This document shows positions 7,755 to 9,660 of a stretch of DNA of 9,660 bases, piece after piece (the stretch's first letter is position 1; every line of letters begins with the position of its first letter). Source of the DNA: a virus (taxonomy: Duplodnaviria; Heunggongvirae; Uroviricota; Caudoviricetes); the IMG/VR virus record IMGVR_UViG_2529292829_000015; one strand, written 5' to 3'. The translations under genes and the position numbers were made by a program. Under the pieces are notes generated by a model that did not search any database, had not been told where the DNA came from, and worked only from the letters and a program-made list of their open reading frames with translations.

Positions 7755-8879
7755 TTACTTCTGGTTATCATCACTGTTCATCCAGTACATGATGCCTAGC
7801 CTTGATATGGTTTTCTTATCTGATTCTGGAAGTGAGTTGTAAAACGAGCGCCAAGCAGAAGAGCGTCTTACAGTTGTATCAACGATGCTTTCTGGTGCTT
7901 GTTTTACTGCCAGCCTTGCTGCTTTCTGGAATTCTGGTGAGCTAATTAGCTTTTCTGCAGATTCAATTGATTCAGCGCCGCCCATCGCCCTGATTTTGCT
8001 GGCGACTTTTGCCCCAATTTCTGACCCAGCAACAGCACCTACTGCACTGAACGGTCCTGACACAGTTGAACCAACCGCAGTGCCAATGCGTTGGGCATGG
8101 TTAGCAACAAATTCATTTGCCGCAGTGACGCGATTAAACCGTTTGACGAACTCGTTTAGTCTTCCTGTAGTTATCTCGTAAGATTTTGCGTCTTTTATAG
8201 CCTTTGCGACCTTATATACATCGTTCAGACCTGACATAGTCTCTTTTGGTAAATGTCGGGCAAGATTGCGCATCTGCCCGTTTGCTAACATGTTTTGATA
8301 CCAGTCAGCAAACCCTGCAGGATTAAAATCAGCGCCACGTTTTCCGTTCGAAAGCATATCCCGAAGACCTGTTCCCAGTAGCTCGGTTCTTAGCTTCCTG
8401 GACGGCGTGTTTTGCATCAATTCACGAAATCCTTTGGCATCGCCTTTCGACATTGCCTGTAGTGCTGTAGTTGCTTTGCGAGAAACATCACCGTTCAGCG
8501 TTCTGCCAGTTAGATTAATCATTTGCTCTTCCATGCTTTTTCGCATCTGAACAAGCCTCTGAGCAACTTCAAAATCACGTAATGCGTTTGTCTCTGACAG
8601 CGCCGCCTTTTGATCATCGGCGAGCGAACCGTAAAGCCTCGATAAAGCAGCGCGATCAGCATCTTTATATGGTCCAGAATTCTTATGAAGTGCATCACCA
8701 ACAAGTCGTCGTTGCTTATTGAGATTTGCATAAGTTAATGCGCCGTTCTTGCCTGGATTAACTGCCCGAAATACTCTCTTTTCAATAGGGTCAAGGTTTT
8801 TCATCCCGCCAAGATCTTCTGCCACCTGTTTGAGCATTGACCTTGTTGATGGCGCATCAATTTTTGCACCTGCAGGCAT
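7755..8879 (-). CDS. Phage protein of uncertain identity; possibly an N-terminally truncated internal virion/DNA-ejection protein of a P22-like phage (position equivalent to gene 16/20)
   Basis: Long minus-strand ORF (six-frame track 7755-9047) encoding an Ala/Gly/Lys-rich, probably helical protein. It is convergent with mnt and oriented like the late genes relative to the tailspike. None of the candidate starts (9047, 8879, 8837, 8804) has a convincing RBS, and the 5' extension overlaps the divergent 114-aa gene. The start at 8879 is provisional and the product assignment is a positional inference. Confidence 0.45.
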   Translation of the reverse strand: MPAGAKIDAPSTRSMLKQVAEDLGGMKNLDPIEKRVFRAVNPGKNGALTYANLNKQRRLVGDALHKNSGPYKDADRAALSRLYGSLADDQKAALSETNALRDFEVAQRLVQMRKSMEEQMINLTGRTLNGDVSRKATTALQAMSKGDAKGFRELMQNTPSRKLRTELLGTGLRDMLSNGKRGADFNPAGFADWYQNMLANGQMRNLARHLPKETMSGLNDVYKVAKAIKDAKSYEITTGRLNEFVKRFNRVTAANEFVANHAQRIGTAVGSTVSGPFSAVGAVAGSEIGAKVASKIRAMGGAESIESAEKLISSPEFQKAARLAVKQAPESIVDTTVRRSSAWRSFYNSLPESDKKTISRLGIMYWMNSDDNQK

Positions 8880-8953
8880 AAAGGTGTTCGCGATAAAGGT
8901 GAATATCAGCAATGAATAACAATCCTCGCACTCGCGGGGATTTCTTTTATCTG

Positions 8954-8980
8954 AACTCGCTACGGCGAGTTTTGTTTTAT
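8954..8980 (+). other. Hairpin (AACTCGC-TACG-GCGAGTT) followed by a T-rich tract, immediately upstream of the 114-aa gene RBS; terminator-like or operator-like element
   Basis: 7-bp perfect stem at 8954-8960 / 8965-8971, then TTGTTTTAT. Sits in the divergent region between the minus-strand ORF and the 114-aa gene. Confidence 0.3.
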
Positions 8981-8991
8981 GGAGACAAGAA

Positions 8992-9336
8992 ATGTCAGAT
9001 TTGGCTATGAAGATTTTGAAATGGCAATCGACTGGCGATGTCGGCATCAGTAGCGCAACTCTTGCCTCAATCGCATGTGGACTGAAAAAGAATATCTATG
9101 GTCATCACTTCGGCGCTCCACATGATGCAGCCGATTTCCGGCGATGCGTTGCACTTGTTGAGCAGATTCCAGAAATCAGAGATTCATTCGACAAGGTTGC
9201 AAAGCGCGTTCCGGCATTCAAAGGAATCCTCAACGAATGGGATTCACTCGTTGCTCTGTTGAAGTCTGAAATGAAGACGTACGGGAACAAAGCACCAGAG
9301 ACTTACAGAAGAATCAGCGAGCTACGCAAGGACTAA
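8992..9336 (+). CDS. Hypothetical protein, 114 aa, no recognisable family
   Basis: ATG at 8992 preceded by GGAG with ~7-nt spacer, TAA at 9334-9336, followed by two consecutive terminator-like hairpins. Soluble-looking with no obvious motif. Confidence 0.6.
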   Translation: MSDLAMKILKWQSTGDVGISSATLASIACGLKKNIYGHHFGAPHDAADFRRCVALVEQIPEIRDSFDKVAKRVPAFKGILNEWDSLVALLKSEMKTYGNKAPETYRRISELRKD

Positions 9337-9339
9337 CCC

Positions 9340-9370
9340 GCCTCACACTCGATGAGGCATTTTCATTTAT
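9340..9370 (+). terminator. Rho-independent terminator candidate (GCCTCA-7 nt loop-TGAGGC, then ATTTTCATTTAT)
   Basis: 6-bp perfect stem at 9340-9345 / 9353-9358, 4 nt after the stop of the 114-aa gene, followed by a U-rich tract. Confidence 0.5.
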
Positions 9371-9392
9371 CAAGATATCCAGACCTACCATC

Positions 9393-9417
9393 GCCGCATC
9401 AATGCGGTTTTTTTATT
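9393..9417 (+). terminator. Second terminator-like hairpin (CCGCA-TCAA-TGCGG) followed by a T7 run
   Basis: 5-bp stem (6 with a G-U pair) at 9394-9398 / 9403-9407, then TTTTTTT ATT. Lies immediately upstream of the 16-bp tRNA-derived repeat. Confidence 0.4.
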
Positions 9418-9424
9418 ACCTGAT

Positions 9425-9440
9425 TTGCAGGTTCGATTCC
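9425..9440 (+). repeat. 16-bp direct repeat, copy 2 (TTGCAGGTTCGATTCC); candidate att-core remnant or recombination junction
   Basis: Exact copy of argW positions 46-61 (window 1054-1069). Not part of a foldable tRNA here, and the adjacent sequence does not continue into the tRNA 3' end. Confidence 0.8.
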
Positions 9441-9459
9441 CTATTCGGAGATAGCACTC

Positions 9460-9660
9460 ATGCAACACGAACTACAGCCTGATTCCCTGGTTGATTTGAA
9501 ATTCATCATGGCCGATACTGGCTTCGGTAAAACCTTCATCTATGACCGGATTAAGTCCGGCGACCTGCCAAAAGCCAAAGTTATCCACGGGCGAGCAAGA
9601 TGGTTATATCGTGACCATTGTGAATTCAAGAATAAGCTTTTAAGCCGCGTCAATGGGTAA
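9460..9660 (+). CDS. torI: AlpA/Xis-family winged-helix recombination directionality factor (TorI-like excisionase)
   Basis: 66-aa ORF, ATG 9460 with GGAG 9 nt upstream, TAA at 9658-9660 (the window ends at the stop). The pattern L...DTGFGKTFIYDRIKSGDLPKAKV...RARWLYRD fits AlpA-family HTH proteins. Size and argW/intS context fit KplE1 TorI; the gene symbol rests on context and recollection and is not verified. Confidence 0.7.
   Translation: MQHELQPDSLVDLKFIMADTGFGKTFIYDRIKSGDLPKAKVIHGRARWLYRDHCEFKNKLLSRVNG

What the first reader, a model, noticed from the sequence alone, without database searches (positions are those of the whole stretch)
8992..9336. Well-expressed-looking 114-aa gene of unknown function, insulated by hairpins on both sides
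This ORF has the best RBS geometry in the right half of the window and is followed by two consecutive terminator-like hairpins. It is preceded by another hairpin plus T-tract only 12 nt before its RBS, which could be an attenuator or operator. It is a standalone unit between the phage-remnant gene and the excisionase-like gene, the kind of location where prophages carry accessory (moron) genes such as exclusion or anti-defence factors. I do not recognise the protein and found no evidence for any specific function.
Basis: inference. Interest (0 to 1): 0.45.

Follow-up and report, generated by a model that had tools for sequence, protein, structure and literature searches.

The report
Orphan phage gene between conserved terminators
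This is a real, conserved but functionally unknown early gene of lambda-like phages, stranded in a decayed E. coli prophage between terminator hairpins already predicted in phage lambda; it is ordinary in its setting, but its protein family is large, unnamed and has no known fold relative.

Summary
The ORF (8992-9336, +, 114 aa) is real. It is 97% identical to the unannotated HK022 gene p30, matches phrog_1229 end to end, is under purifying selection (dN/dS 0.11-0.17) and occurs in 963 of 5426 complete E. coli genomes. The window is a decayed P22/HK620-like prophage at argW. ORF114 is the last gene of the phage leftward early (exo-xis) region, just upstream of the excisionase gene torI. Four terminator-like hairpins flank it, two on each side, all on the + strand. 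The upstream pair is 97% identical to phage lambda and equals the predicted terminators t3 and t4 of the lambda exo-xis region. No promoter was found, and the early promoter and antiterminator are deleted here, so this copy is probably silent. The "moron" and "well expressed" readings are not supported. "Standalone cassette" is supported: homology with other phages breaks at the hairpins, and an imperfect direct repeat brackets the gene. Function stays unknown. There is no Pfam, NCBIfam, PADLOC or PDB match. A very confident AlphaFold model (pLDDT 96) has no structural neighbour. The family has about 2,700 clusters across many phyla and no conserved neighbour gene. Best guess: a stand-alone early accessory protein made only from antiterminated transcripts.

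The parts
7755..8878 (-). Context: 5'-truncated DNA-transfer (ejection) protein pseudogene. Its upstream end is the deletion joint of the decayed prophage.
   Evidence: phrog_6704 6e-63 and phrog_770 'DNA transfer protein' 1e-49, matching only the C-terminal half of the profiles. RefSeq marks it a pseudogene 'missing N-terminus'. Homology to the intact prophage in strain EC16 starts at 8879.
8879..8919 (+). Last 41 nt of an ASCH-domain gene (stop TAA at 8917-8919). In intact relatives this gene precedes ORF114.
   Evidence: 97% identical to EC16 locus L002 6000-6040, the 3' end of the annotated ASCH-domain CDS 5756-6040.
8921..8951 (+). Hairpin 1 (stem-loop 8921-8942) plus U-rich tail. Equals the predicted rho-independent terminator t3 of the lambda exo-xis region.
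   Evidence: 9-bp stem, -13.1 kcal/mol, z -5.2. Window 8916-8985 is 97% identical to lambda 29361-29292. The t3_lambda sequence is in Table 4 of PMC4195576.
8953..8980 (+). Hairpin 2 (stem-loop 8953-8972) plus U-rich tail. Equals the predicted terminator t4 of lambda, and abuts the ORF114 ribosome-binding site.
   Evidence: 8-bp stem, -11.9 kcal/mol, z -4.4. t4_lambda sequence. The A/G variant at 8967 keeps pairing as U-A or U-G.
8981..8984 (+). Shine-Dalgarno GGAG, 7 nt before the ATG.
   Evidence: Read from the sequence. Invariant in 9 aligned contexts. Unpaired in the centroid structure; two of its bases (8982-8983) pair weakly in the minimum-energy structure.
8992..9336 (+). ORF114: 114-aa, 12.7-kDa, basic (pI 9.2) all-helical protein of the phrog_1229 / HK022 p30 family. 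Function unknown.
9340..9371 (+). Hairpin 3 (stem-loop 9340-9358) plus T-rich tail. Its 19-mer is invariant in 8 contexts, including K-12, which lacks ORF114. Its 5' arm and loop repeat those of hairpin 1.
9393..9418 (+). Hairpin 4 (stem-loop 9393-9408) plus U7 tail: the excisionase-proximal terminator-like element. It holds the same position as lambda t5 and resembles it.
   Evidence: The HK022 copy continues into the same tail and xis leader as lambda t5.
8909..8934 (+). Left copy of the imperfect direct repeat bracketing ORF114. The right copy is 9326-9351. The core CCTCRCACTCG sits at 8924 and 9341.
   Evidence: 26 nt, 77% identical, spacing 417 nt. The core occurs only twice in the window against 0.01 expected. 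In related loci it occurs only at these flanks, and once in K-12.
9460..9660 (+). torI, the excisionase (recombination directionality factor) of the KplE1/HK620-type module: the gene that the hairpin series ultimately gates.
   Evidence: RefSeq annotation in the identical record. 93% nt identity to K-12 from 9340 onward. phrog_66 excisionase 4e-8.

Best explanation
ORF114 is an intact single-gene cassette from the far end of the leftward early (pL, 'exo-xis') operon of a lambdoid phage. It survives in a heavily deleted P22/HK620-like prophage at argW.

Shown: it encodes a conserved, selectively constrained, compact all-helical protein. The family is large, widespread in phages and prophages, and wholly uncharacterised (phrog_1229; HK022 p30). 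The gene lies between two tandem terminator-like hairpins upstream, which equal lambda t3 and t4, and two downstream, which lie just before the excisionase gene torI.

Inferred: in an intact phage the gene has no promoter of its own. It is transcribed, together with the excisionase gene, only by antiterminated RNA polymerase coming from pL, that is, early in lytic growth or after induction. In a lysogen the hairpin series blocks stray transcription. This matters in this type of recombination module, where production of TorI alone triggers excision. In this island pL and the antiterminator are gone, so this copy is most likely silent. It was probably kept by hitch-hiking next to torI and attR, not by selection on the host.

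Speculative: the protein acts alone, since it has no conserved partner gene. Its target is probably something universal such as nucleic acid, nucleotides or core machinery, because the family spans phages of many bacterial phyla. It would act through the surface formed by the invariant residues S20, P43, D45, D48, R51, C52 and W83. Its role would be as a non-essential early accessory or host-takeover factor.
For: Gene reality:
- phrog_1229 E 2e-51 over residues 1-114.
- 97% identity to HK022 and mEp043, with homologues in Salmonella, Yersinia, Vibrio and Arthrobacter phages.
- dN/dS 0.11-0.17.
- 2,686 clusters at E<=1e-3.
- 963 of 5426 E. coli genomes carry it.

Location:
- The island map is yfdC-argW-intS-gtrABC-tailspike-mnt-pseudogene-ORF114-torI-dsdC.
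- In the intact relative EC16 the order is cIII-kil-recombination genes-abc2-ea22-DUF551-ASCH-ORF114-torI, all on one strand.
- The gene is last or near-last before xis/int in HK022, mEp043, 2851, c341 and SE22, with at least four different integration modules.

Hairpins:
- Searches give positions and energies.
- 97% identity of 8916-8985 to lambda 29292-29361, which are t3_lambda and t4_lambda predicted by ERPIN and RNAmotif (PMC4195576).
- c341 annotators mark a rho-independent terminator a little upstream of the homologue, in that phage's divergent stretch at the hairpin-1 position.
- In HK022 and mEp043 a different hairpin with a T-run sits directly before ORF114.

No promoter.

Stand-alone protein:
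- No recurrent neighbour in 38 locus groups.
- The taxonomic spread runs from Proteobacteria to Chloroflexota, Bacteroidota, Acidobacteriota, Patescibacteria and one archaeal MAG.
- Invariant residues are listed.
- The model is confident: pLDDT 96.2, pTM 0.89.
Against: - No expression data were available. Termination and antitermination at these hairpins are predicted, not measured.
- Hairpin 3 has a U-poor tail in most phages (CTGTTCATTTCT), yet its 19-mer is invariant. It may therefore be something other than a terminator, such as a protein-binding, RNA-processing or recombination linker element.
- The simple consensus scan can miss weak or non-sigma-70 promoters. The mnt-like gene at 7444-7737 is on the same strand and could send some read-through transcription towards ORF114.
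- The molecular function is a guess. Most invariant residues look like helix caps (G-x-S-S; D-P-x-D) and core tryptophans, so they may be structural and not an active site.
- The high prevalence in E. coli genomes could reflect a lysogen benefit.
Confidence: 0.6

Rival explanations
1. ORF114 is a true moron: an independently transcribed gene expressed from the prophage that benefits the lysogen, for example by superinfection exclusion or defence. The hairpins would serve to insulate it from the phage operon.
For: - The cassette is bounded by hairpins and by a direct repeat.
- It is present in 18% of complete E. coli genomes, with up to 4 copies per genome.
- It is kept intact in an island that has lost most phage genes.
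- It lies in variable accessory regions next to methyltransferase and Lar-like anti-restriction genes in some phages.
Against: - No promoter-like site was found.
- The 77 nt upstream are fully occupied by two terminators, with only 8 nt between stem 2 and the RBS.
- There is no signal peptide or membrane segment, as judged by eye from the sequence; this was not run through a predictor.
- Distant homologues overlap their neighbours by 1-4 nt inside early operons, including in 60-kb Vibrio phages in whose inspected 8-kb stretch no integrase or repressor is annotated.
- No PADLOC hit.
Confidence: 0.12
2. ORF114 is a small DNA-binding regulator (helix-turn-helix-like) that modulates excision or the lysis-lysogeny choice, like other exo-xis genes.
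For: - The protein is basic (pI 9.2).
- The N-terminal segment 'helix-TGDVG-ISSxTL helix' resembles a helix-turn-helix turn plus recognition helix. This is a reading by eye.
- It is adjacent to xis/torI in at least six lambdoid phages.
- Exo-xis genes as a group affect lysogenisation and induction (PMC3824215 and PMC8614690 abstracts).
Against: - The gene accompanies at least four unrelated int/xis types. In PY54, Vibrio, Arthrobacter and metagenomic phages it is not next to recombination genes at all.
- No Pfam helix-turn-helix model matches any of 75 members.
Confidence: 0.13
3. ORF114 is a small enzyme or ligand sponge. Its pocket would be built from the invariant Ser20/Ser21, Asp45, Asp48, Arg51 and Cys52, acting on a nucleotide or signalling molecule, for example in counter-defence.
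For: - Seven residues are 100% invariant and five more are at least 90% conserved across 75 sequences that share only 24% mean column identity. One is a lone Cys next to an Arg.
- The family spans phages of very different hosts.
- It is a stand-alone gene in variable early regions.
- One relative carries two tandem copies of the domain, which hints at a dimer (P0063).
Against: - The invariant residues fit helix N-caps and core positions.
- There is no similarity to any known sponge or enzyme fold in the PDB.
Confidence: 0.15
4. The hairpins are mainly recombination linkers or RNA-processing and stability elements ('boundary sequences' that let cassettes be swapped between phages), not working terminators.
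For: - Mosaic breakpoints coincide with them.
- Hairpins 1 and 3 share the core CCTCRCACTCG and bracket the cassette.
- The 22-nt T-tract plus RBS joint is duplicated around the 55-aa gene inserted in HK022, mEp043 and lambda.
- The hairpin 3 19-mer is invariant while its U-tail is not.
Against: - All four have the orientation-specific T-run on the transcribed strand only.
- Two independent programs call t3 and t4 terminators in lambda.
- The two roles are not mutually exclusive.
Confidence: 0.25

Closest known systems
HK022 p30 / mEp043 gp29 / c341 gp20 / phage 2851 EP2851_02 (PHROG family phrog_1229)
   Same: Same protein: 94-97% identical, 114 aa. Same place, last or near-last early-left gene before xis/int.
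   Different: Nothing of substance differs. Here the gene sits in a deleted prophage remnant. The family has no assigned function in any source searched.
Phage lambda exo-xis region (ea22, ea8.5, the 55-aa ORF lambdap35, orf60a/61/63/73) with predicted terminators t3, t4 and t5
   Same: The same operon segment. The double hairpin 8916-8985 is 97% identical to lambda t3/t4. It is followed by the same GGAG joint, then a small cassette, then an xis-proximal hairpin. Exo-xis genes are early-expressed, non-essential and mostly of unknown mechanism.
   Different: Lambda has the 55-aa ORF in the slot and lacks ORF114. HK022 and mEp043 have both. ORF114 shows no sequence similarity to any solved structure; solved structures of Ea8.5 homologues, recalled from memory, would have been among the chains searched.
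Morons of lambdoid prophages (Hendrix's definition, from general knowledge: a gene inserted between two genes that are adjacent in related phages, with its own promoter and terminator, expressed from the prophage)
   Same: An extra single gene that is present or absent between conserved flanks and is followed by terminator-like hairpins.
   Different: No promoter of its own was found, and terminators lie directly upstream. Relatives are embedded in early operons.
KplE1 (CPS-53) / HK620 / Sf6 recombination module (IntS, TorI, attL/attR at argW)
   Same: Same insertion site. Same intS at attL and torI at attR. The torI leader, including hairpins 3 and 4, is 93% identical to K-12.
   Different: ORF114 is not part of that module. 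K-12 carries yfdT/ypdJ instead, with homology starting 4 nt after the ORF114 stop.

Membership tests
phrog_1229 / HK022 p30 family | End-to-end profile match | tested here: met
   E 2e-51, residues 1-114 against profile positions 1-113 of 116. All 75 aligned relatives hit the same PHROG.
phrog_1229 / HK022 p30 family | Family-invariant residues (S20, P43, D45, D48, R51, C52, W83) present | tested here: met
   All are present in the window protein; the numbering is its own.
Lambdoid exo-xis (distal pL operon) gene | Lies between the recombination genes (exo/erf) and xis, on the same strand as the pL operon | tested here: met
   Intact relative EC16: cIII, kil, Rad52-like, ssb, exonuclease, abc2, ea22, ASCH, ORF114, torI, all on the + strand. 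HK022 and mEp043 show the same order.
Lambdoid exo-xis (distal pL operon) gene | Transcribed from pL early after infection or induction | not testable with these tools
   No expression data. This is inferred from gene order and the absence of a promoter.
Moron | Own promoter | tested here: not met
   No sigma-70-like site between 7600 and 9660 on either strand. The conserved upstream block is occupied by two hairpins. The scan is consensus-based, so weak promoters are not excluded.
Moron | Own terminator downstream | tested here: met
   Hairpins at 9340-9358 and 9393-9408 with T-rich tails. Their activity was not measured.
Moron | Inserted between genes that are adjacent in related phages | tested here: met
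   In lambda and K-12 the flanking elements are present without ORF114.
Moron | Expressed from the repressed prophage | not testable with these tools
   Needs transcript data.
Rho-independent terminator | G+C-rich stem, 3-8 nt loop, U-run directly after, on the transcribed strand | tested here: met
   Four sites, with energies of -8.3 to -13.1 kcal/mol. Two equal the lambda t3/t4 predictions. The tails of hairpins 1-3 are interrupted U-runs.
Rho-independent terminator | Terminates transcription | not testable with these tools
   Needs in vitro transcription or Term-seq.
Helix-turn-helix DNA-binding proteins | Significant sequence or fold match to an HTH family | tested here: not met
Known defence-system proteins (PADLOC) | Profile match | tested here: not met
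   0 families at E<=10. No anti-defence library was available, so anti-defence families were not tested.
Lambda Ea8.5 family | Sequence similarity to solved Ea8.5 homologues | tested here: not met
   No PDB sequence hit below E 0.1, with either the single sequence or the profile. In lambda, ea8.5 lies upstream of t3/t4, not in the ORF114 slot.

The most novel reading that the evidence does not exclude
The ORF114 family (about 2,700 sequence clusters, absent from Pfam and NCBIfam, confident model with no PDB neighbour) is a new protein fold. It would carry a new phage counter-defence or host-takeover activity aimed at a universal target, using the invariant Ser-Ser / Asp-x-x-Asp / Arg-Cys / Trp constellation. 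The terminator-gated cassette layout next to the excisionase gene would then be the way lambdoid phages confine it to the induced state.
Probability: 0.25. Interest if true: 0.6.

Novelty: new member of a known kind. Interest (0 to 1): 0.3.

Why it matters
For this window it matters little. The gene is a near-identical copy of a catalogued hypothetical phage gene. It probably lies silent in a prophage remnant, and the flanking hairpins are conserved lambdoid exo-xis terminators already predicted in lambda.

Two points have wider use.

1. The protein family is large and spans phages of many phyla, yet it has no name, no Pfam model and no structural relative, despite a very confident model. It is a clean, cheap target for structure determination and phenotype screens in well-behaved model phages such as HK022 and mEp043.

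2. The layout shows how single-gene cassettes are exchanged at terminator/RBS joints just upstream of the excisionase gene. It also shows that up to four tandem terminators stand between upstream transcription and torI, in a module where TorI production alone triggers excision.

Tried and rejected
Searches for a function that found nothing:
- Pfam, NCBIfam and PADLOC scans of the protein: no hit.
- Pfam scan of 75 family members: noise only.
- PHROG scan of the same 75 members: four families, all 'unknown function'.
- PDB sequence search with the single sequence and with the profile: nothing below E 0.1.
- Rfam on 8700-9660: two sub-threshold chance hits.

Domain fusions:
- 20 longer relatives were scanned in Pfam and 10 in PHROGs. 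The extensions are heterogeneous and unannotated.
- Several E. coli 'fusions' to MazG-like, ERF, Ea22 or Kil sequences are most likely deletion chimeras in decayed prophages.

Gene neighbourhood:
- 62 viral loci, then 82 viral plus genomic loci, were examined. No neighbour recurs in more than 3-4 of 27-38 locus groups. The commonest, judged by eye from its sequence, is a tyrosine integrase two genes downstream.
- Contexts of the long-form relatives P0074, P0078 and P0085 were uninformative.

Literature:
- Searches by locus tags and accession numbers gave nothing.
- The paper on Rho-controlled KplE1 maintenance (Menouni 2013, PMC3761637) is not held, so its content was not used as evidence.

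Ideas considered and dropped:
- ORF114 as the positional allele of ea8.5. Lambda ea8.5 lies upstream of t3/t4.
- The upstream hairpins as an artefact of the deletion joint. The joint is at 8878/8879, and the hairpins are native to intact phages.
- A promoter hidden in 8915-8991. The only -10-like TTTTAT at 8975-8980 would start transcription inside or after the RBS (by eye).

Full report
**1. Where the window comes from**

The window is identical to E. coli strain 027_SK3 (NZ_CP067311). It covers yfdC, tRNA-Arg argW (1009-1083) and a small island inserted at argW.
- The island holds intS, gtrA, gtrB, a serotype-specific transferase, a tailspike (minus strand) and an Arc/Mnt-type repressor gene.
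- It then holds a 5'-truncated DNA-transfer protein pseudogene (minus strand), ORF114 and torI. dsdC follows outside the window.
- It is therefore a strongly deleted relative of the P22/HK620/KplE1 group of prophages.
- An intact relative in strain EC16 shows the missing part. On the same strand as ORF114 it carries cIII, kil, a Rad52-like annealase, ssb, an exonuclease, abc2, DUF2737, ea22, DUF551 and an ASCH-domain gene, then ORF114 and torI.
- Homology between the window and EC16 starts at 8879. The deletion joint is thus at 8878/8879, and 8879-8919 is the last 41 nt of the ASCH gene.

**2.

The ORF is as described: 8992-9336, ATG start, 114 aa, with GGAG 7 nt upstream.
- The scan finds four terminator-like sites between 7400 and 9660, all on the + strand and all flanking this ORF: 8921-8942, 8953-8972, 9340-9358 and 9393-9408.
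- Folded alone they give -13.1, -11.9, -9.1 and -8.3 kcal/mol, with z-scores of -5.2, -4.4, -3.9 and -3.0.
There are two.

**3. It is a real gene**

- The protein matches phrog_1229 end to end (E 2e-51).
- It is 94-99% identical to genes in HK022 (not annotated in the record used), mEp043, Stx phages and Salmonella phage c341. It is 30-62% identical to genes in other Salmonella, Cronobacter, Yersinia PY54, Vibrio and Arthrobacter phages.
- Pairwise dN/dS against five close homologues is 0.11-0.17.
- The gene occurs in 963 of 5426 complete E. coli genomes, with up to four copies, always annotated 'hypothetical protein'.

**4. The upstream hairpins are known elements**

- Window 8916-8985 is 97% identical to phage lambda 29361-29292, minus strand.
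- These are the rho-independent terminators t3 and t4 predicted in the lambda exo-xis region by Bloch et al. 2014 (PMC4195576, Table 4). That paper notes the region is believed to be transcribed from pL.
- The layouts compare as follows:

| Phage or locus | Order of elements |
|---|---|
| lambda | ea8.5 - t3 - t4 - 55-aa ORF (lambdap35) - t5 - xis |
| HK022, mEp043 | t3 - t4 - the same 55-aa ORF - a t5-like hairpin with a T-run - ORF114 - hairpin 3 - (HK022 only: hairpin 4) - xis |
| This window, EC16, 2851 and SE22 (c341: divergent at hairpin 1) | t3 - t4 - ORF114 - hairpin 3 |

- Downstream of hairpin 3, the window and EC16 continue with hairpin 4 and torI. The other phages differ after hairpin 3.
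- A little upstream of its homologue, in the stretch where c341 diverges at hairpin 1, the c341 annotators marked a rho-independent terminator.
- The only variation in stem 2 (A or G at 8967) keeps the pair as U-A or U-G.
- Hairpin 4 has the position and general form of lambda t5. In HK022 it continues into the same tail and xis leader as t5.

**5. It is a cassette**

- K-12 has yfdT/ypdJ in place of ORF114. Its homology to the window begins at 9340, four bases after the ORF114 stop, and runs through torI at 93% identity.
- Homology with other phages ends between 9366 and 9413, and begins at 8915-8935 or 8964.
- The two flanks are related. 8909-8934 and 9326-9351 are 77% identical over 26 nt. 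Each starts in the last codons of a gene and runs into the 5' arm and loop of a hairpin, and similar T-rich tails follow.
- The core CCTCRCACTCG occurs only at these two places in the window, against 0.01 expected. In related loci it occurs only at the corresponding flanks, and K-12 has a single copy.
- The hairpin 3 19-mer GCCTCACACTCGATGAGGC is invariant in eight contexts while its tail varies.
- The 55-aa gene of lambda, HK022 and mEp043 is likewise bracketed by a duplicated 22-nt T-tract/RBS joint.
- These terminator/RBS joints therefore appear to be the places where single genes are swapped in and out.

**6. It is probably not a moron, and probably not expressed here**

- No promoter-like site is found on either strand between 7600 and 9660. 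The conserved block upstream of the gene is filled by the two hairpins.
- The early promoter and antiterminator region is deleted in this island.
- The only same-strand gene upstream is the mnt-like gene (7444-7737). Any read-through from it would cross 1.1 kb of untranslated antisense RNA and then two terminators.
- In more distant relatives the gene is usually packed against same-strand neighbours, often overlapping them by 1-4 nt.
- The most economical reading follows. In intact phages, ORF114 and the excisionase gene are reached only by antiterminated transcription from pL, and the hairpins keep them off in the lysogen.
- All of this is inference from anatomy. No transcript data were available.

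**7. The protein**

- It is 12.7 kDa with pI 9.2.
- There is no Pfam, NCBIfam or PADLOC match.
- There is no PDB sequence match with the sequence or with a 75-member profile.
- An exhaustive profile search finds 2,686 clusters at E<=1e-3 and 477 at E<=1e-10. None has a Pfam domain for this region or a name other than 'hypothetical'.
- Relatives occur in genomes of Beta-, Gamma- and Alphaproteobacteria, Acidobacteriota, Chloroflexota, Bacteroidota, Patescibacteria, Actinomycetota and Desulfobacterales, and in one Methanoperedens MAG. BFVD also holds a distant structural match (20% identity, Foldseek E 0.03) from a giant virus.
- With 75 sequences AlphaFold gives pLDDT 96.2 and pTM 0.89: seven helices (3-14, 19-28, 46-58, 60-72, 74-81, 83-97, 102-112) and an ordered loop at 29-45.
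- Across 75 sequences with 24% mean column identity, S20, P43, D45, D48, R51, C52 and W83 are invariant. W11, G18, S21, L55 and P60 are nearly so.
- G-x-S-S and D-P-x-D look like helix N-caps and the tryptophans like core residues. The invariant Arg-Cys pair is harder to explain structurally.
- One relative has two tandem copies of the domain, which hints at dimerisation.
- N- and C-terminal extensions in other relatives are heterogeneous and unannotated.

**8. Context gives no partner**

- In 27 and then 38 dereplicated locus groups, no neighbouring gene family recurs in more than 3-4 groups. The commonest looks like a tyrosine integrase, two genes downstream; that assignment is by eye from its sequence.
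- Neighbours are typical variable early-region genes: annotated exonucleases, a DNA methyltransferase, Lar-like anti-restriction genes, an HNH nuclease, helicases and primases, plus RdgC-like, MazG-like and further methyltransferase ORFs recognised only by eye.
- The protein therefore most likely works alone. Given its host range, it probably acts on something common to many bacteria or to phage DNA metabolism. That is as far as the evidence goes.

**9. Comparison with known things and verdict**

- The gene is a member of the catalogued but uncharacterised phrog_1229 / HK022 p30 family.
- Its setting is the lambdoid exo-xis region. The genes of that region are early, non-essential, and collectively influence lysogenisation and induction by unknown mechanisms (abstracts of PMC3824215 and PMC8614690).
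- It fails the promoter criterion for a moron.
- It is not part of the KplE1 recombination module.
- The finding is real but ordinary in its genomic logic.
- What remains open is the function of a large, unnamed protein family with an apparently new fold.

Noticed in passing
window 9425-9440 (also 1054-1069); L003 (K-12) 12276-12291; L002 6546-6561: An exact 16-nt copy of the argW tRNA T-arm (TTGCAGGTTCGATTCC) lies 20 nt upstream of the torI start codon. The recognised attR core (pawZ in K-12) lies downstream of torI. In the tRNA the two pieces are contiguous, so torI sits between two fragments of the tRNA 3' half. None is expected by chance. The copy is conserved in K-12 and EC16 but absent from c341, HK022 and lambda. 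It may be a relic of an older attachment site.
   Followed up: partly
L004 (mEp043) 3806-3973; L008 (HK022) about 2810-2975; lambda 29118-29285: A 55-aa ORF (lambdap35 in lambda, gp30 in mEp043) occupies the slot directly after t3/t4. In HK022 and mEp043 it lies between the double hairpin and ORF114, bracketed by a duplicated 22-nt T-tract/RBS joint (window 964-985 of the 8000s, i.e. 8964-8985). Many E. coli prophages show the same extra 'hypothetical protein' (two-piece matches).
   Followed up: partly
window 9340-9358: The 19-mer GCCTCACACTCGATGAGGC is 100% invariant in eight contexts whose surroundings are only 81-96% identical, including K-12, which lacks ORF114. Its 3' tail changes from U-rich to U-poor. 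Conservation beyond what a simple terminator needs suggests a sequence-specific role, such as protein binding, RNA processing or a recombination linker.
   Followed up: partly
window 7444-7737 (+): The 97-aa protein has an Arc-type ribbon-helix-helix N-terminal part (PF03869, 4e-14) and an Mnt C-terminal part (PF11423, 3e-14), so it is an Mnt-like repressor without the arc/ant partner genes. RefSeq starts it 33 nt later (the 261-nt CDS corresponds to 7477-7737). It is the only plausible source of + strand transcription towards ORF114.
   Followed up: no
window 7755-8878 (-) and the listed 430-aa ORF 7755-9047: The mechanical ORF list extends the truncated DNA-transfer pseudogene across the deletion joint and antisense into the 5' end of ORF114 (to 9047). 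This extension is an artefact of the joint, not a gene.
   Followed up: yes
proteins P0015, P0017, P0030, P0031, P0047, P0048, P0197 (E. coli): Many E. coli database proteins join part of ORF114 to pieces of MazG-like, ERF, Kil or Ea22 proteins. They are most likely in-frame deletion chimeras from decaying prophages, which would show that deletion end-points often fall inside ORF114.
   Followed up: no
proteins P0074, P0078, P0085, P0123; loci L013, L083, L084: A subfamily carries the ORF114 domain at the N-terminus plus a conserved extension of about 150 aa that is unannotated and ends in a basic R-(R/K)-A-A motif or a close variant (RRKVA in P0085). It is found on short metagenomic contigs, one next to thymidylate kinase and a CheW-domain protein, so it may be a cellular version and not a phage one.
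   Followed up: partly
window 5337-7403 (-) and 3829-5280 (+): The tailspike gene and the 483-aa polytopic membrane protein downstream of gtrA/gtrB (probably the serotype-specific transferase) both differ from the K-12 island. K-12 has yfdI and tail-fibre remnants there.
   Followed up: no
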